The notes under the pieces were generated by a model that worked only from the letters and a program-made list of their open reading frames with translations, was not told where the DNA came from and did no database searches. DNA of 64,000 bases from Candidatus Marinacidobacterales bacterium (GTDB lineage: Bacteria; Acidobacteriota; Vicinamibacteria; Marinacidobacterales; SMYC01), in assembly GCA_965237955.1 (NCBI GenBank), contig OZ250169.1, positions 6,880,001 through 6,944,000 of the forward strand, in the 5' to 3' direction. Within the stretch, counting starts at the first letter, position 1. Each line of letters opens with the position of its first letter. Position numbers and translations under genes: made by a program. This document shows positions 26,023 to 35,105 of the stretch, one piece after another.

Positions 26023-26876
26023 CTAGAGCTCGCGGGCGCGGTCTCTCAGCACGTAATTCTGCACTTTGCCCGTGGACGTTTTGGGAAGCTCGCAGAAGAC
26101 GACCGTCTTCGGCGCTTTGAAGTGGGTGAGCCGGTCGCGGCAGAACTCGATGATCTCGTCAGGTTGAACGTCGCCCGCGCCGGGCTTCAACGCGACGAAC
26201 GCGCACGGCGTTTCGCCCCACTTTTCGTCCGGCCGCGCGACGACGGCGGCGTCTTGCACCGATGGGTGTTTGTAGAGAACGCCTTCGACTTCGATGGAAG
26301 AGATATTCTCTCCACCGGAGATGATGATGTCTTTCGAGCGGTCACGGAGCTCGATGTAGCCGTCTGGGTGCACGACGCCTAGATCCCCCGAGTGGAACCA
26401 CCCACCCGCGAACGCTTCTTCCGTCGCTTTCCGGTTTTTCAGATACCCTTTCATCACGACGTTCCCGCGGAACATTACTTCACCCATGGTCTCGCTCTTA
26501 GCGCCTTTCCCACCAGCGGGCTGAACTCACGATCGGTGATCAGGACTTTGGTCTAGGCGTGCTCGAGGATGAACGCGACCGTGTCCGCGTCGAGGCGCGT
26601 GTTGAGTGTGTTCAGGACCGCGCCCGCCATCGGCACGCCGTAGTGCGACTCGAGAATCGCTGGAATGTTGGGGGCGAGGATGCTCACGGTATCGCCTCGC
26701 CCGATGCCCCGTCCGCGAAGGGCGCGCGCAAGACGGCGGCACCGCCGGTAGAGCTCAGCGTAGTCGTAGCGCACGTCGCCATGGACGACGGCGAGGTGAT
26801 CGGGATAGACCGTAGCAGCGCGTTCCAAAAAGTGGATCGGCGTCAGCGTCTGAAAATTCGCTTGTGTTTTTTCCAC
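26023..26876 (-). pseudogene. Acyl-CoA synthetase with large internal deletion
   Basis: N-fragment 26553..26876 (LTPIHFLERAA..GAVLNTLNTRLD) and C-fragment 26023..26487 ([29 protein letters not shown]); P-loop region absent. Confidence 0.88.
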
Positions 26877-29638: not shown

Positions 29639-30589
29639 GTGCGTCTCGTCACCGAGCAGAAGCTCCGCGAGCTTGTTCATGAAGACGAGTCGCTCCGGGC
29701 CGTGGAGGACGCGTTCCGAGCCCTCGCCGAAGACCGGGTGGAACAGCCACCTCCGATGGCGTTCGACTTCCCGGAAGCGTCGGGCGAGGTGCATGTGAAA
29801 GGCGCCGCGATTCGAGGCTCGCCGATCTTCGCCGTGAAGATTGCGTCGGGCTTCTATCGTAACCCCGAGCAAAACCTGCCGGCGAGCTCGGGGCTCGTCC
29901 TCGTGCTCGACCAGACGACCGGCTTCCCTCTCGCGCTTCTTCAAGACAACGCGTACCTCACCGAGATGCGTACCGCGGCAGCGGGGGCACTCGCCGCGCG
30001 GTTATTGGCGCACGAGACCATCGAAAAGATGGCGGTCCTCGGAGCTGGCGCGCAGGCACGTTATCAACTACGCGCGATCCGGCGCGTCCGTGACGTCGAA
30101 AACGTCGTCGCCTGGAGCCCGACGCCCGCACGCAGAGAGCTCTATTGCCGCGAGATGGAAAGCGAGCTCGGCCTCCGGTGCACGCCCGCGGACACCGCTC
30201 GGGACGCCGTCGACGATGCCGGCCTCGTGCTGTCGGTAACAACGGCGCGCTCTCCGATCGTCCATGCGGATGCGGTCTCGAAAAGCTCCACCATCATCGC
30301 AGTCGGCTCCGACGGACCCGACAAGCAGGAGCTCGATGCGAAGATTCTCAACCAGGCCGGCAAAGTCGTCGTCGACCGCTTGTCGCAATGCGTGCGGCTC
30401 GGCGAAGTGCACCACGCGATCGAGGCGGGACTGATGGGCGAAGAGGACGTCTACGCCGAACTCGGCGACGTCCTTACCGGAAAGAAGCCGGGTCGAGAAG
30501 GCGACGAGCTCATCGTCTGCGATCTCACCGGTGTCGGTGTGCAGGACGCCGCTATTGCCGAGCTCGCATGGAACGCGCTAGAGCGCTAG
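29639..30589 (+). CDS. Ornithine cyclodeaminase/mu-crystallin family protein
   Basis: LTEMRTAAAG, GAGAQA, AVGSD, DLTGVGVQD. Confidence 0.92.
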   Translation: MRLVTEQKLRELVHEDESLRAVEDAFRALAEDRVEQPPPMAFDFPEASGEVHVKGAAIRGSPIFAVKIASGFYRNPEQNLPASSGLVLVLDQTTGFPLALLQDNAYLTEMRTAAAGALAARLLAHETIEKMAVLGAGAQARYQLRAIRRVRDVENVVAWSPTPARRELYCREMESELGLRCTPADTARDAVDDAGLVLSVTTARSPIVHADAVSKSSTIIAVGSDGPDKQELDAKILNQAGKVVVDRLSQCVRLGEVHHAIEAGLMGEEDVYAELGDVLTGKKPGREGDELIVCDLTGVGVQDAAIAELAWNALER

Positions 30590-31977
30590 CGATCGTTCCG
30601 GCCCAGCAGCCCTTTGCGCCTAAAATAGAGCACCTGGATCAACACGATGAGCGCCATCACGCCGATGACCCCGGCATAGCCGAGCGGCGTGTAGAGCTCG
30701 GGCATGTTGTAGGGGTGCACCATCTCTCCTGCAGGCGCATACGCCTGGAAGTTCATTCCGTAGAAGCCGGTGATGAGCGCGAGCGGCAGTACGATGACAG
30801 AGACGATAGTGAGTACGTTCATGAACTGGCTGATGCGATAGGTTTCCTTCTCGCCCAGCGTCTGCGCCAGCTCCTTCACCGACTGAATCTCTTTTTCCAG
30901 CCCGTCGACGATGAGGTTCGCATCGTTGACTCGATTGCGGATCTTCGCGACTTCGTCCCCGAGCCTCAGAGCGTTCATCAGGTCCTCTTCTTCGGGCAAG
31001 CTCTCGTTGCGCATCGCCGGGAGGATCTCGTCGCCTTTAGCCGCGGCTCTTTTGACGTACGCAAGGATGGTGTCGAACATCGAGATATCACCGGAGAGCT
31101 CGCTGATGGTGTCTTGAATCTCCATGATGCTCCCGATGCCCTCGGACCGGATCACCTCCTTCACCTTCGACAACCGATCCCACGTCATCCACATTCGGGA
31201 GAAAGTATTCGTGAGAAACGACTGGATGCCCTCGGCGAAACAGTAGAGCTCGAGAACGCGCCGGTACCGCTCGGCGTCTTTCGAGATGAACACCGCTCCG
31301 TTGGTACCGGCGATGAGCTTGCTGCCGTCTTTCAACGTGAGTGCATCGTTTCCGAACGGCCTCCCTACAATCTGGCTGAGCTCGGCGCGATACGCCGGAT
31401 CGTCGAGATAGACCTCGACGTCGTGCTCGGGGATGAGCTCATCTGCCAGAATCAGGACGTATTTGTCCCGCTGACTCGCTTGGTCGCAGTAAACGAGATC
31501 CAAAAGCCGCCGCTGGAAGTTGTTCAAGAGCGTGTTCATCAGCGAAGACGTATCCTCGACCAGGTCCGCAAGAACCAAGGCGAGATCGTCCAGGCTGTGC
31601 CGCTCGGTGTTTCCGTTGGTTTCGAGAAGCTCCAGATCGCACGTCACCACGCCACCTTCGCCCACTCGCGTCGTGAACCGTTCGACTTGGTGATTTCCGC
31701 CCGTCGCCTTGTAATGCACTTCGGCTTGGAACGCGACCCATTCACCGTCTTTCCCATCGACCGGCGTGACTTTCGTCTCGGGCTCGTCGAACTCGACGGT
31801 CGCCGTTTCCGGATCGTCGTCGATGAACGCGGTGAGCAAGCACTCGCCCCACTTGTCGTGGGCCTCTAGCTTCTCTTCGAGGAGAATGAGATTGTTGGTG
31901 CCGAACGGGATCCACTCGGCGAGCGTGACCTTCGGGTTCGATCCGAGGAACAAGAGATTTTTGTGCTCGTGGCTCAC
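30586..31977 (-). CDS. CorA-family (GMN) channel-like protein with atypical long N-terminal domain
   Basis: MNVLTIVSVIVLPLALITGFYGMNF, MPEL loop, second TM ending YFRRKGLL; 463 aa. Confidence 0.75.
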   Translation of the reverse strand: MSHEHKNLLFLGSNPKVTLAEWIPFGTNNLILLEEKLEAHDKWGECLLTAFIDDDPETATVEFDEPETKVTPVDGKDGEWVAFQAEVHYKATGGNHQVERFTTRVGEGGVVTCDLELLETNGNTERHSLDDLALVLADLVEDTSSLMNTLLNNFQRRLLDLVYCDQASQRDKYVLILADELIPEHDVEVYLDDPAYRAELSQIVGRPFGNDALTLKDGSKLIAGTNGAVFISKDAERYRRVLELYCFAEGIQSFLTNTFSRMWMTWDRLSKVKEVIRSEGIGSIMEIQDTISELSGDISMFDTILAYVKRAAAKGDEILPAMRNESLPEEEDLMNALRLGDEVAKIRNRVNDANLIVDGLEKEIQSVKELAQTLGEKETYRISQFMNVLTIVSVIVLPLALITGFYGMNFQAYAPAGEMVHPYNMPELYTPLGYAGVIGVMALIVLIQVLYFRRKGLLGRNDR

Positions 31978-32600
31978 CCAACTCCTCCCGGTGACGTTGG
32001 CCTCGTGCGATAAACGATCTCGGCGATGTCGAAGAAAGCGATATTGACGCGCGCCGTCCCCTTGGTCGCGGCAATGACGCGTCCGTCGGCGCCGCGCTCC
32101 ACGCTACAGCACTCGGGGCAGTAGCTGACGGCGGAGTTCCGCACTTGGCCCCAGTGGCCGCTAGCGCGCTCGACATAAGCGAGAATTTCCTGGAGCGAGT
32201 CGCAGCGCGAGCACTCCAAGAGGGCGTTCAACGCAACCAGGCACTCGACCGGCAGAGACTCGAGAGCCCCGTCGGCTTTCGGCGTCGCGCGGTAGGCCCG
32301 GATCGAGTCGTAGAGGCACGTCGACAGGTGCAATTTCTCGACGAAGCGGTCCGCCTGAAGCTTCTTCAGATCAGCGTGCGCTTCTTGGCTCACCTTCCCG
32401 TACATCTTCACACCGTGAAACTCGACGAGGCTCGGCGCCCAGTCGTAGTCGCTGAAGATCCCGGTGTGGATCCCGTGGTAAACGACAATCGACAGCGGCA
32501 AATCCTTCATCCAGCGGCATTTTCCGTTGGCACCGTTCGCGTGGGTGAAGCGGTTGACGATGTACAGAAGCCGGAGCTGGTCGAGAGACGGTGAGTCCAT
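31974..32600 (-). CDS. Hypothetical protein (possible winged helix + CxxC/CxxC Zn ribbon), coupled to CorA-like gene
   Basis: CSRC and CPEC pairs; GTGA stop/start overlap with downstream gene. Confidence 0.7.
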   Translation of the reverse strand: MDSPSLDQLRLLYIVNRFTHANGANGKCRWMKDLPLSIVVYHGIHTGIFSDYDWAPSLVEFHGVKMYGKVSQEAHADLKKLQADRFVEKLHLSTCLYDSIRAYRATPKADGALESLPVECLVALNALLECSRCDSLQEILAYVERASGHWGQVRNSAVSYCPECCSVERGADGRVIAATKGTARVNIAFFDIAEIVYRTRPTSPGGVG

Positions 32601-32689
32601 GGGTGCCTTTCGACGGGAACGATTTTCGATTGTTTGGGACTAGTGGAAATAGCATAGCAAAGGACGGAGCCGCGCGCGACGCAGTCGTT

Positions 32690-32815
32690 CGCATTCCCAA
32701 CAGGTACGATCGCGAGGCCCTCTGCTGTGGCCGGATTGGTAACCTCGATACTCTCGTCACTCTCGTTCGAGGAGGAGGCACAAAACGCCCCGTCGACGTA
32801 GTTCCGTACGATCAT
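32690..32815 (-). pseudogene. Aldehyde dehydrogenase N-terminal remnant
   Basis: RNYVDGAF...IEVTNPATAE..AIVP, then homology lost. Confidence 0.6.
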
Positions 32816-33035
32816 GTCGCACCTCTAGATTTGTCGTGTGCCTCCAGTATCCCACTGACAGCGGACGGCAGCCAGTGAGGGCTTATCCCCGCACTCCGGC
32901 GAGATTCCTCCCTAGGTGAGAGCTCGAAGGCCCCGTCAATACTGAGGTTTCTCGAGGCGGGGACTCCGGCACGCATCTTGCCTAAATTTTCCCCTGGAGT
33001 GCCCTCTCCTATCTTCACTTACTGAGGACCGGACA

Positions 33036-35105
33036 GTGAGTTCGACAACGAAAAGCGAGAAAAAGACCGAGGCCGTGGCCGCGCAGGGATTCGAAGACAT
33101 CCCGGGCGAACGGTACGAGGTTGTCTCTCAACTCGGAACCGGCGCCTTCGGCTCTGTCTACAAAGCGCAGGATACATTTCTCAACCGCGCGGTCGCGGTC
33201 AAGAGTATTCGGCTCGACACATCACTGGATCCCGAGCAACGTAAAGCACTGAACAAACGCTTTATCCGCGAAGCCCAGGTGGCGGCGCAGCTCCAACACA
33301 CGAACATCGTCACCATCCACGACATTATGTTCACGCCCGACACCGGCTTCATCGTGATGGAGTTCATCGAGGGCTCCACCTTGCAGTCGCTCATGGAGAA
33401 GAACCAGCTACCGCTCGCCCGCGCCGTCGACATCACCACCCAGATCGCACGCGCGCTCGAGTACGCGCACGCGCACAAAGTCATCCATCGCGACATCAAG
33501 CCGGCGAACATCATGATCACGCCGTCGTTCGAAGCGAGGATCACCGACTTCGGTATCGCGAAATCGGACGGCGCCACCCACCTGACGATGTCCGGAAGCC
33601 TCGTCGGTACCCCCGACTACATGTCACCCGAGCAGGCCAAAGGCGAAGAAGTCGATTTCCGCTCCGACCTGTTCTCGCTCGGCTGCGTTTTCTATGAGTG
33701 CCTCGCCGGTGAGAAGCCGTTCAAAGGCGGGAGCCTCACCGCTGTCCTTCTCAGCATCGTCAACACCGACCCGCTCGAGTCACAGGCGTGGAGGAAAATC
33801 GACGTTCCTCCCGAGGTACCGGCTGTCTTTCAGAAGGCGCTCGCGAAAACTCCGGAGGGACGGTTTGCGACCGCGACCGAGTTCGTCTCCGCACTCGCGA
33901 CCGTTCCCACGGAAGGTGCGATCGCCGACGCACCCACCCCAGTCGAAGCCAAAAAGAACTCCGTCGATGCCACCACCGTCGAGATGCGCCCCGGCGAGGA
34001 AATCCCGCCTCCGGCCCCCGACATCGATCGAGTCGCGATCGAGGCGCTCATGGAAGAAGAGCGTCCGCTTCGTTTTTCCTCCAAGCTTTCGGACGAGCTC
34101 CAGAACATCAATCTCACGCCCGCTCAGGGCTACATCCTGTCGCGCATCGACGGATCGTCGTGCGCCCGCGACATCGTTTCACTGAGCCCCGTACCCGAAG
34201 CCGAGGCCGCCGAGACTCTCCTCGACTTGATCTCCAAGGGCCTGGTGACATGGGACAACGAGTCCGGCAAGGCGGCACCCGACAAGAAGATTCTGTCGGC
34301 TTGCGAGGATGACGGTGAAAGCGCACTCGAGTCTGCGCTCCTGACCGCAATCGATCGCATCCTACGGCTCGCACGCGAACGCCGCTACTCCGATCTTCTC
34401 GGCATCGATATCAGCACGCCAACGGCGGACGTCAAGAACTCTTACCTCGAGCTCATCCAGCGTTTTCATCCGGATGCGCAGTCCGGCGACATCACACCCG
34501 CCGATCGACAAAAGCTGACCAGGGTGTGTGCGGCGGCGACGGAAGCTCTTGCGGCAGTTTCTCCCAAGAAAGTCTCCGCCCCGCCGCTGCCTCAAGAAGA
34601 GCCGGAAGCCGCGAGTGCGACCGCGAAGCTGCGCCAGAAGGAGTACGCGGCAGAACTTTTCGAGCGCGCACGCGAGGCGTACGAGATCACCGACTTCTGG
34701 GAAGCGATCCAGTTGTCACGGCAGTCGATCGAGCTCGACGCTACCAACGCCGCTTACCACCATCTCCTCGGACTCGGCCTGATGAGAAACCAGAACTGGA
34801 TGAAAGAGGCCGAAGAAAGCTTGCGCAAAGCGACGGAGCTCGACGACACTCAAGCCGAATACTTCGTAGAGCTCGCGTCCTCCTATCTTCGGCAAGGGAT
34901 GGAGGAACGCGCGGCGGCGATGAATGAAAAAGCGGCCGCCCTCGTACCGCCGGCGCCGGCGCCAGAGCCCGAAGCTGAACCTGTCGAGGAAGTCGAGCCC
35001 GAAGCAGAGCCCGAAAGCCGACCCGAGACGAAAGCTGAAGACGACCCAGAGGAGCTCGAAGTCGAGCTCGAAGCGGAAGCGGAAGGGGAAGCGCCCGCGT
35101 CCTAG
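33036..35105 (+). CDS. Hanks-type Ser/Thr kinase fused to wHTH-like, J (HPD) and TPR domains
   Basis: [31 protein letters not shown]; [22 protein letters not shown]; TPR helices; acidic tail. Confidence 0.88.

What the first reader, a model, noticed from the sequence alone, without database searches (positions are those of the whole stretch)
30586..32600. Two-gene module: Zn-ribbon/wHTH-like protein coupled to a CorA-type GMN channel with a non-CorA sensor domain
Seen: the 208-aa and 463-aa genes overlap by GTGA, implying translational coupling. The larger ends in a canonical CorA pore (TM1-GMNF, MPEL loop, TM2, basic tail) but is over 100 aa longer than typical CorA. Its N-terminal ~230 aa (EWIPFG, TAFIDDDP, QVERF, SLDDLA..L.D, RDK..LILADE) do not resemble a CorA cytoplasmic domain. 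The partner has DYDWAP, KVSQE and two CxxC pairs. Unverified recollection: both motif sets resemble two parts of one uncharacterised protein found fused in protists (e.g. oomycetes), with relatives in some archaea. Inference: an undescribed regulated divalent-cation channel or sensor-effector system with cross-domain distribution.
Basis: partly seen in the sequence, partly recalled or inferred. Interest (0 to 1): 0.8.

Follow-up and report, generated by a model that had tools for sequence, protein, structure and literature searches.

The report
Two-part CorA channel with fused relatives
Two overlapping genes of a marine acidobacterium encode a small zinc-ribbon protein and a membrane protein with an intact CorA magnesium-channel pore; the small protein likely binds and regulates the channel, because protists and some bacteria make the two as one fused protein.

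Summary
Both genes, the GTGA overlap, the cysteine pairs and the YGMNF/MPEL pore are at the stated coordinates.

- **Families:** close relatives carry two catalogued but unstudied Pfam 38.1 families: PF27231 (MJ1567) for the partner and PF27230 for the channel's N-terminal region.
- **Linkage:** the gene order partner-then-channel is kept in every related locus that covers both genes, including one pair only about 31% identical.
- **Fusions:** a profile search of 1.84 billion proteins listed 150 partner relatives. Of the 148 new ones, 35 carry the partner domain followed by the channel's cytoplasmic domain in one chain. Named examples are an oomycete, an ichthyosporean and a Wallbacteria protein.
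- **Correction:** the channel's cytoplasmic part is unlike CorA in sequence, but its model matches CorA, ZntB and MRS2 structures. It looks like a diverged CorA domain, not a foreign sensor.
- **Context:** housekeeping genes in conserved order, with no defence or mobile genes.

This scan has met the module before, in Asgard archaea, where it lacks GMN. New here is a bacterial split pair with an intact CorA filter.

Binding, ion transport and the gating signal are all untested. The complex prediction and the partner fold search could not be run.

The parts
31974..32600 (-). Partner gene, 208 aa (P0002). PF27231/MJ1567-family protein: helical N-terminal half with beta-hairpins, then a four-cysteine beta-rich zinc-ribbon-like half and a C-terminal FFD..VYRTRP motif.
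   Evidence: ORF. Relatives carry PF27231.1. ESM Atlas top cluster is 'MJ1567 family', score 0.94. C130/C133/C161/C164 are invariant in 30 relatives. AF2 model has pLDDT 91.5 and pTM 0.86.
31974..31977 (-). GTGA overlap: stop of the partner gene and start of the channel gene.
   Evidence: The same overlap is seen in L010, L011 and L012.
31984..31988 (-). GGAGG Shine-Dalgarno-like site inside the end of the partner gene, 6 nt before the channel's GTG.
   Evidence: Read directly from the sequence.
30586..31977 (-). Channel gene, 463 aa (P0001): PF27230 N-terminal region plus CorA pore.
   Evidence: AF2 model has pLDDT 79.5 and pTM 0.70.
31285..31977 (-). Residues 1-231: acidic alpha/beta cytoplasmic domain (pI 4.4), the core of the PF27230 region.
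   Evidence: Secondary structure, invariant residues, pI. No sequence match to CorA. CorA-family matches that reach into it start at model residues 13-25, 78 or 107-111.
30844..31284 (-). Residues 232-378: two long antiparallel helices and the stalk helix that runs into TM1.
   Evidence: Helices 235-278, 280-325 and 339-408. Matches to the cytoplasmic helices of CorA, ZntB and MRS2.
30586..30843 (-). Residues 379-463 plus stop: TM1, periplasmic loop, TM2 and basic tail.
   Evidence: Hydrophobic segments 381-410 and 428-454. hhalign to ordinary CorA gives probability 99.8 and 41% identity over 101 columns. T. maritima CorA chains match at E 5e-10.
30751..30759 (-). GMN signature (G407-M408-N409) at the end of TM1.
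30694..30705 (-). MPEL loop motif (residues 425-428).
32643..32662 (-). Conserved upstream element, consensus TTTGCTATCCTATTTTCAC, about 45-60 nt before the partner's ATG. Possibly a promoter or operator; function not tested.
   Evidence: Largely invariant in 7 of 7 aligned upstream regions. No Rfam family in 30300-33200. The sigma-70 consensus scan found nothing.

Best explanation
The module encodes a CorA-superfamily membrane protein with an intact GMN pore and a small MJ1567-family zinc-ribbon protein that is predicted to bind the channel's cytoplasmic domain as a dedicated subunit and would gate or stabilise a divalent-cation (likely Mg2+/Co2+) channel.

**Shown**
- The two genes overlap by GTGA and keep this order in all relatives that could be checked.
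- The pore region is a genuine CorA sequence.
- In 35 other proteins the partner domain and the channel's cytoplasmic domain form one colinear chain.

**Inferred**
- Physical 1:1 binding, from the fusions and the translational coupling.
- Pentameric assembly and cation conduction, from CorA homology.
- A regulatory role for the partner.
- The signal that is sensed is unknown.
For: **Coupling and linkage**
- GTGA overlap with an internal GGAGG, also present in L010, L011 and L012.
- The partner lies directly upstream of the channel in 5 of 5 genome loci and in all 4 metagenome loci that extend upstream of the channel start (L017, L020, L022, L023). L023 is a pair only 31-32% identical to this one.
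- Two more divergent pairs share source and contig length: P0134 with P0021, and P0146 with P0112. Adjacency was not seen for these.

**Fusions**
- The partner profile found 323 representatives at E<=1e-3 among 1.84 billion proteins.
- Of the 148 new listed ones, 35 carry partner positions about 4-140 followed 47-134 aa later by the channel's N-domain. Local hmmsearch E-values ran from 3e-33 to 6e-69. A further 15 are partial.
- The domain order matches the gene order.

**Pore and fold**
- PF01544 scores 75.8 bits against a cut-off of 27.
- YGMNF and MPEL are present.
- 41% identity to the ordinary CorA consensus over TM1-loop-TM2.
- Model matches: C. jejuni CorA Z 13.7, ZntB soluble domain Z 12.7, M. 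jannaschii CorA Z 12.6, human MRS2 Z 11.6 with 205 residues aligned over model 23-461, T. maritima CorA 2hn2 with 237 residues aligned over 13-456.

**Selection and ancestry**
- Both genes are under purifying selection and have host-like codon use.
- They sit between the same housekeeping genes in four genera.
Against: - No direct test of binding was possible, because the complex prediction could not be run.
- Most of the wider family lacks GMN: all 35 fused forms, P0021 and P0025, and the archaeal pairs described in earlier scan notes. Ion conduction may therefore not be the family's core function.
- The module is dispensable. The partner was found in 8 of 41 related genomes including this one. 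In three of those eight a gene of the pair is degraded: G017 has stops, G005 a frameshift, and G018 a broken channel gene.
- Helical matches with Z under about 13 can reflect common helix packing only (caveat printed).
- The channel model has low confidence at residues 50-64 and 92-97.
- The helical half of the partner could bind DNA rather than the channel.
Confidence: 0.55

Rival explanations
1. The family is a CorA-derived membrane scaffold or signalling protein, not an ion channel. On this view the partner-plus-MJ1566_N unit carries the real, unknown function, and the GMN pore in the acidobacterial form is an ancestral relic that may no longer matter.
For: - All 35 fused forms, P0021 and P0025 lack GMN but keep the cytoplasmic domain and 1-2 hydrophobic segments.
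- Fused forms add a further C-terminal region of about 100 aa after the membrane segments.
- Earlier scan notes report GMN-less archaeal pairs (unchecked here).
Against: - The GMN/MPEL region is strongly conserved. Across the relatives aligned, the two GMN-bearing clades (27-32% identical in the N-domain) both keep YGMNF and NMPEL, which argues for selection on the pore.
- Channel dN/dS is 0.06-0.14.
Confidence: 0.17
2. It is an ordinary housekeeping Mg2+/Co2+ CorA channel, and the small protein is a DNA-binding transcription factor for the operon rather than a channel subunit.
For: - The channel is the only PF01544 match in this 8.13-Mb genome, and likewise in G009 and G013.
- The partner's N-terminal half is helix-rich with beta-hairpins, compatible with a winged-helix reading.
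- A conserved element lies upstream of the operon.
Against: - A free transcription factor would not be expected to be fused, colinearly and repeatedly, to the N-terminus of its target's product (35 fusions). A membrane-tethered regulator is not excluded.
- The genome has MgtE.
- G006 and G012 carry the module as well as ordinary CorA genes.
- The TIGR00383 equivalog score is 89.5 against a cut-off of 200.75.
- The partner is neutral, pI 7.0.
Confidence: 0.18
3. It is a phage-defence or abortive-infection effector, like the CorA-family membrane effectors of type III CRISPR systems, with the partner acting as the sensor.
For: - Weak matches to PADLOC 'CorA-like' models, E 7.5e-07 and 3.2e-06, covering residues 357-451 only.
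- Patchy presence and decay within one bacterial family.
Against: - Neighbours are housekeeping genes (GroEL-type chaperonin, dicarboxylate symporter, ornithine cyclodeaminase, Ser/Thr kinase, chorismate mutase/prephenate dehydrogenase). The 17 flanking genes scanned include no cas, nuclease or mobile genes.
- The flanks are syntenic across genera.
- No relatives in viral contigs or plasmids.
- The PADLOC match covers only the shared pore.
- The family extends to eukaryotes.
Confidence: 0.07

Closest known systems
CorA / ZntB / Mrs2 divalent-cation channels (Pfam PF01544; structures such as 4i0u, 4ev6, 8zak, 3nvo, 8ts1)
   Same: - Two C-terminal membrane helices, YGMNF at the end of TM1, an MPEL loop and a basic tail.
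- A long stalk helix continuous with TM1, and an alpha/beta plus helical cytoplasmic part.
- Pfam score above the cut-off, and structural matches at Z 10-13.7.
   Different: - The cytoplasmic 360 residues have no detectable sequence similarity to ordinary CorA and form their own Pfam family, PF27230.
- The protein is roughly 70-120 aa longer.
- It scores below the CorA equivalog cut-off.
- It comes with an obligatorily linked partner gene. From my own knowledge, ordinary CorA has no such partner.
Pfam 38.1 PF27230 and PF27231 (MJ1567). Earlier scan notes name PF27230 'MJ1566_N', after two adjacent uncharacterised Methanocaldococcus jannaschii genes.
   Same: - Relatives at 94% identity (channel) and 88% identity (partner) carry these families.
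- The Atlas names PF27231 as MJ1567.
- Same two-gene arrangement.
   Different: - According to earlier scan notes (not checked here), the archaeal membrane partners lack GMN. This acidobacterial clade and the P0022/P0023/P0112/P0113 clade keep a full CorA filter.
- The name of PF27230 comes from those notes only.
- No function is known for either family. I found no paper that mentions them.
Fused partner-plus-channel-domain proteins of protists and bacteria (KAF1331198.1 Globisporangium splendens; Chromosphaera perkinsii EP01135 P006580; PKK90968.1 Candidatus Wallbacteria)
   Same: Same two domains in the same order. The channel N-domain profile matches at E down to 6e-69, and the full-length channel profile matches as far as the stalk.
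   Different: - A single chain of 598-1507 aa (the 35 complete fusions).
- No GMN.
- CxxC pairs are mostly absent. Only 9 of the 35 have any CxxC before the N-domain.
- An extra C-terminal region follows the membrane segments.
- In the tree they form their own clade (30 of 31 rows, support 100/100), separate from the split forms.
Type III CRISPR-associated CorA effectors (activated by SAM-AMP; PMC12255297, abstract seen in the listing)
   Same: A CorA-superfamily membrane protein with a non-standard cytoplasmic part, used with a separate sensing component.
   Different: - No cas genes or signal-making enzymes nearby.
- Only the pore region matches the PADLOC CorA models, and only weakly.
- The cytoplasmic domain belongs to a different family.

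Membership tests
CorA/MIT superfamily (PF01544) | Pfam model match above the gathering score | tested here: met
   75.8 bits against a cut-off of 27, but only the C-terminal half of the model (positions 142-292 of 292) on residues 287-454.
CorA/MIT superfamily (PF01544) | Two C-terminal membrane helices with G-M-N at the end of the first and an MPEL loop | tested here: met
   Hydrophobic segments at 381-410 and 428-454. G407-M408-N409 and M425-P426-E427-L428. 41% identity to the ordinary CorA consensus over 101 columns.
CorA/MIT superfamily (PF01544) | CorA-type cytoplasmic fold: alpha/beta domain, long helices and a stalk continuous with TM1 | tested here: inconclusive
   CorA, ZntB, MRS2 and CmaX are the best natural matches (Z 10-13.7). 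Several reach into the alpha/beta domain, with model ranges starting at 13-25, 78 or 107-111. The model exceeds 400 residues, the N-domain was not searched alone, and helical Z values below about 13 are ambiguous.
CorA/MIT superfamily (PF01544) | Homopentamer that conducts Mg2+/Co2+/Ni2+ | not testable with these tools
   Needs biochemistry or structure determination. No oligomer prediction was run.
Canonical CorA equivalog (NCBIfam TIGR00383) | Full-length score above the curated cut-off | tested here: not met
   89.5 bits against a cut-off of 200.75, residues 276-457 only. hhalign aligns only 361-463.
PF27230 (named MJ1566_N in earlier scan notes) | Match to the family model | tested here: met
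   Indirect. The local Pfam copy lacks the model, as shown for its sister PF27231. Relatives from 94% down to 25% identity carry precomputed PF27230.1.
PF27231 (MJ1567) | Match to the family model | tested here: met
   Indirect. All 32 relatives carry PF27231.1. The ESM Atlas top cluster is 'MJ1567 family' (97% of its members carry PF27231), score 0.94 with 200 of 256 features shared. The local library lacks the model.
Zinc ribbon (partner, C-terminal half) | Two CxxC knuckles on beta-hairpins | tested here: met
   C130-x2-C133 and C161-x2-C164 are invariant in 30 relatives. Strands at 138-145, 153-160, 165-170 and 173-179 in a model with pLDDT 91.5. Zinc binding itself was not tested. The distant L023 partner has different cysteine spacing.
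Winged helix-turn-helix (partner, N-terminal half) | Three-helix core with a beta-hairpin wing, shown by fold comparison | not tested
The partner model was never accepted for a fold search. Its secondary structure runs H6-19, H33-45, E55-61, E64-70, H72-83, E87-93, E99-105. That order is compatible with a winged helix but does not prove it.
Type III CRISPR CorA effector / PADLOC 'CorA-like' | Full-length match to the defence model and a cas10 or signal-enzyme neighbourhood | tested here: not met
   The PADLOC match covers residues 357-451 only, E 7.5e-07. None of the 17 flanking genes scanned is a cas or defence gene.

The most novel reading that the evidence does not exclude
The MJ1566/MJ1567 module is an ancient two-subunit descendant of CorA found in bacteria, archaea and eukaryotes. 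The acidobacterial pair, with its intact GMN/MPEL filter, preserves the ancestral state: a Mg2+ channel gated by a dedicated zinc-ribbon subunit. From this state the GMN-less archaeal pairs and the fused protist proteins later evolved a different membrane function. If so, this pair is the experimentally tractable entry point to an unstudied, cross-domain membrane protein family.
Probability: 0.3. Interest if true: 0.75.

Novelty: new variant of a known kind. Interest (0 to 1): 0.6.

Why it matters
CorA is the textbook prokaryotic Mg2+ channel and, from my own knowledge, is regarded as a self-sufficient homopentamer gated by its own cytoplasmic domain. A CorA-type pore that is inherited together with a dedicated partner would be a new regulatory arrangement for this superfamily. 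The case for that is strong here, because bacteria and protists repeatedly make the two as one chain.

The wider family (PF27230/PF27231) reaches from Acidobacteriota and Wallbacteria to archaea and protists, and has no known function. Because this version keeps the CorA filter, ordinary Mg2+/Co2+ transport assays with and without the partner can be applied to it. The GMN-less archaeal and eukaryotic versions do not offer that handle.

Tried and rejected
- **Complex prediction:** partner with channel residues 1-370. Binding therefore rests on the fusions and the coupling only.
- **Partner fold search:** never accepted, so the winged-helix label is untested.
- **Channel fold search:** only a second look at Foldseek's own candidates was run. 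The wide search and a search of the N-domain alone were not.
- **Solved structures by sequence:** the PDB profile search gave only the CorA pore for the channel and nothing credible for the partner (best E 0.022, DNA ligase).
- **Libraries for the partner:** the local Pfam, NCBIfam and PADLOC copies gave nothing. PHROGs gave nothing credible for either protein.
- **ESM Atlas on the channel N-domain:** only weak leads at 0.78-0.81, to CorA and MRS2-like clusters.
- **Mobile or viral origin:** no relatives in viral contigs or plasmids.
- **Riboswitch upstream:** no Rfam match.
- **Replacement of ordinary CorA:** not clean. G000, G009 and G013 have only this channel, while G006 and G012 have both kinds. 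The tallies include G027, an unpublished genome, but no claim here depends on it.
- **Empty-site check:** in three genomes without the module (G001, G002, G011) the ornithine cyclodeaminase flank is present and no remnant of the pair was found at E<=1e-5. The direction of change, gain or loss, was not resolved.
- **Literature:** searches for PF27230/PF27231, MJ1566/MJ1567/MJ1568 and Marinacidobacterales found no paper. A broader CorA/zinc-ribbon search gave nothing relevant.
Full report
**Observation**

Window 31974-32600(-) encodes a 208-aa protein (P0002) and 30586-31977(-) a 463-aa protein (P0001). The stop of the first gene and the GTG start of the second overlap as GTGA, and a GGAGG lies 6 nt upstream of the GTG. 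Both genes have GC3 of 0.79-0.81, like their neighbours. Both are under purifying selection against three relatives: dN/dS is 0.06-0.14 for the channel and 0.17-0.27 for the partner, with dS near saturation.

**The channel**

- **Pfam and NCBIfam:** Pfam CorA (PF01544) matches residues 287-454, but only the second half of the model (E 4.7e-21). The NCBIfam CorA equivalog scores 89.5 bits against a cut-off of 200.75.
- **Profile comparison:** a profile-profile comparison with 28 ordinary CorAs aligns only residues 361-463 (probability 99.8, 41% identity). That stretch covers the end of the stalk, TM1 with YGMNF, the NMPEL loop, TM2 and the basic tail.
- **Own family:** residues 1-360 are therefore not CorA-like in sequence. 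Relatives from 94% down to 25% identity carry a separate precomputed Pfam family, PF27230.1. The local Pfam copy does not hold these new models, as one search showed for PF27231.
- **Predicted structure:** the AlphaFold2 model (pLDDT 79.5, pTM 0.70) shows an alpha/beta domain (1-231). Two long helices follow (235-278, 280-325), then a roughly 70-residue helix (339-408) that runs into the membrane, and a second membrane helix (433-455).
- **Structural matches:** 992 Foldseek candidates were re-aligned. After three designed helical bundles, the best matches are CorA-family structures. They are C. jejuni CorA (Z 13.7), ZntB soluble domain (12.7), M. jannaschii CorA (12.6) and T. maritima CorA (up to 12.4, and 237 residues aligned over model 13-456 for 2hn2). 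Human MRS2 (11.6, model 23-461), CmaX and the E. coli CorA cytosolic domain (Z 10.6, rmsd 1.8 over 136 residues) follow.
- **Reading:** I read the cytoplasmic part as a strongly diverged and enlarged CorA-type domain. The caveat is that helical matches at these Z values are not decisive, and the N-domain was not searched on its own.

**The partner**

- **Library searches:** no match in the local Pfam, NCBIfam or PADLOC copies and none credible among solved structures.
- **Family:** all 32 relatives from the word-based search carry PF27231.1. The nearest ESM Atlas cluster (score 0.94, 200 of 256 features shared) is 'Uncharacterized protein MJ1567 family', 86% archaeal.
- **Predicted structure:** the AlphaFold2 model is confident (pLDDT 91.5, pTM 0.86). 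It has a helical N-terminal half with two beta-hairpins and a beta-rich C-terminal half that holds the four invariant cysteines (C130, C133, C161, C164).
- **Untested label:** the fold search for this model could not be run, so 'winged helix' remains a label, not a result.
- **Charge:** the partner is neutral (pI 7.0), while the channel's alpha/beta domain is acidic (pI 4.4).

**Linkage**

- **Genome loci:** the partner directly precedes the channel in 5 of 5 genome loci retrieved, all Acidobacteria or 'Candidatus Marinacidobacterales' MAGs.
- **Metagenome loci:** the same order holds in all 4 metagenome loci that extend upstream of the channel start (L017, L020, L022, L023).
- **A distant pair:** L023 carries a pair only 31-32% identical to this one, with the same order and abutting genes.
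- **Possible further pairs:** two other divergent pairs share source and contig length (P0134 with P0021, P0146 with P0112). This suggests, but does not show, adjacency.

**Fusions**

- **Search result:** an exhaustive profile search with the partner against 1.84 billion representatives gave 323 hits at E<=1e-3, of which 150 were listed.
- **Sorting the hits:** I scanned the 148 new ones with local profiles.

| Class | Count |
|---|---|
| Partner domain (positions about 4-140) followed 47-134 aa later by the channel's N-domain (E 3e-33 to 6e-69) | 35 |
| Partial or fragmentary fusions | 15 |
| Short stand-alone proteins (<=300 aa) | 89 |
| Longer proteins without the N-domain | 9 |

- **Extent of the match:** the full-length channel profile matches the fused proteins up to about position 390 (the stalk). 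It does not match the GMN membrane region, and the ordinary CorA profile matches none of them.
- **Membrane part:** the fused forms have 0-3 hydrophobic segments, usually 1-2 after the stalk. They lack GMN at that position and usually add about 100 further residues.
- **Named members:** KAF1331198.1 of the oomycete Globisporangium splendens, whose gene model also carries WDR35 domains; a Chromosphaera perkinsii protein; and PKK90968.1 of Candidatus Wallbacteria.
- **Weight of the evidence:** this is Rosetta-stone evidence that partner and channel domain act together.

**Family tree**

A maximum-likelihood tree of the N-domain plus stalk had 43 rows. It used 12 split forms and 31 of the 35 fused forms; P0205, P0241, P0252 and P0266 were left out. 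It puts 30 of the 31 fused forms in one clade (100/100) and the split forms on the other side (100/100). GMN-bearing forms fall in two clades, with the GMN-less P0021 and P0025 between them on weakly supported branches. No archaeal channel sequences were in this tree.

**Distribution and context**

- **Related genomes:** the partner was found in 8 of 41 related genomes including this one, all in one family (7 of 18 there; 0 of 8 and 0 of 14 in two sister families).
- **Decay:** in three of those eight a gene of the pair is degraded.
- **Rest of the phylum:** the N-domain profile found no match in 400 other genomes of the phylum.
- **Mobile elements:** no relatives in viral contigs or plasmids.
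- **Neighbours:** the flanks are housekeeping genes and are syntenic across four genera.
- **Other Mg2+ transporters:** the channel is the only PF01544 match in this 8.13-Mb genome, which also has MgtE. Relatives with the module may or may not also have ordinary CorA (that call's tallies include the unpublished genome G027).
- **Upstream element:** a conserved 19-nt element lies 45-60 nt upstream of the partner's start in 7 of 7 loci. No Rfam family matches there.

**Earlier notes of this scan**

Five earlier reports describe the same two-family module in Asgard archaea, there without GMN. They name PF27230 'MJ1566_N' and note fusions in bacteria and protists. I confirmed the fusions and the MJ1567 name independently. 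The PF27230 name and the archaeal GMN-less state were not checked here. What this window adds is a bacterial split pair whose membrane part is still a full CorA pore.

**Verdict**

The most likely reading (0.55) is a two-subunit CorA-type divalent-cation channel whose diverged cytoplasmic domain docks a dedicated MJ1567-type subunit.

- **Shown:** coupling, conserved linkage, the fusions and the CorA pore sequence.
- **Inferred:** binding, pentamer formation, ion conduction and regulation.
- **Rivals:** a non-channel membrane function for the whole family (0.17), an ordinary CorA with a transcription-factor neighbour (0.18), and a defence effector (0.07).

Noticed in passing
window 26023-26487(-) and 26553-26876(-): Two short ORFs carry only the C-terminal domain (PF13193) and only the first ~92 positions of the AMP-binding domain (PF00501) of an acyl-CoA-synthetase-type enzyme. 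It looks like a gene with its middle deleted or broken.
   Followed up: no
window 32643-32662(-): A conserved element, consensus TTTGCTATCCTATTTTCAC, lies 45-60 nt upstream of the partner's start in all 7 aligned loci. The rest of the intergenic region is not conserved. It could be a promoter or an operator.
   Followed up: partly
P0154, P0233, P0269 (metagenome proteins); P0255 (KAF1331198.1): JGI names several fused family members 'WD repeat-containing protein 35', although the two of them I scanned (P0154, P0233) have no WDR35 domain. The oomycete gene model P0255 joins real WDR35 domains to the module. The name may have spread from such a merged gene model.
   Followed up: partly
P0183 residues 19-148; P0226 residues 3-44: Two fused family members carry a SprT-like zinc-protease domain (PF10263) ahead of the partner domain. 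The match is above the Pfam cut-off only in P0183 (30.7 bits against 25.6).
   Followed up: no
L009 = G018:C1:5254091-5257180 (match at G018:C1:5255591-5255680): G018 has a second 32-residue fragment of the partner's N-terminus, with a TGA inside, about 4 kb from its main copy. Its channel gene is itself broken: two reading frames, ending near residue 321.
   Followed up: no
Genomes G020-G040, family f3: None of the 14 genomes searched in sister family f3 has any PF01544 (CorA) match, although most are over 90% complete. They presumably rely on other Mg2+ transporters.
   Followed up: no
window 32660-32815(-): A short ORF upstream of the partner begins with a stretch that reminded me of aldehyde dehydrogenase N-termini (recollection only). 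It has no Pfam match, no paralogue in the genome and is not conserved in relatives. It is probably not a gene.
   Followed up: partly
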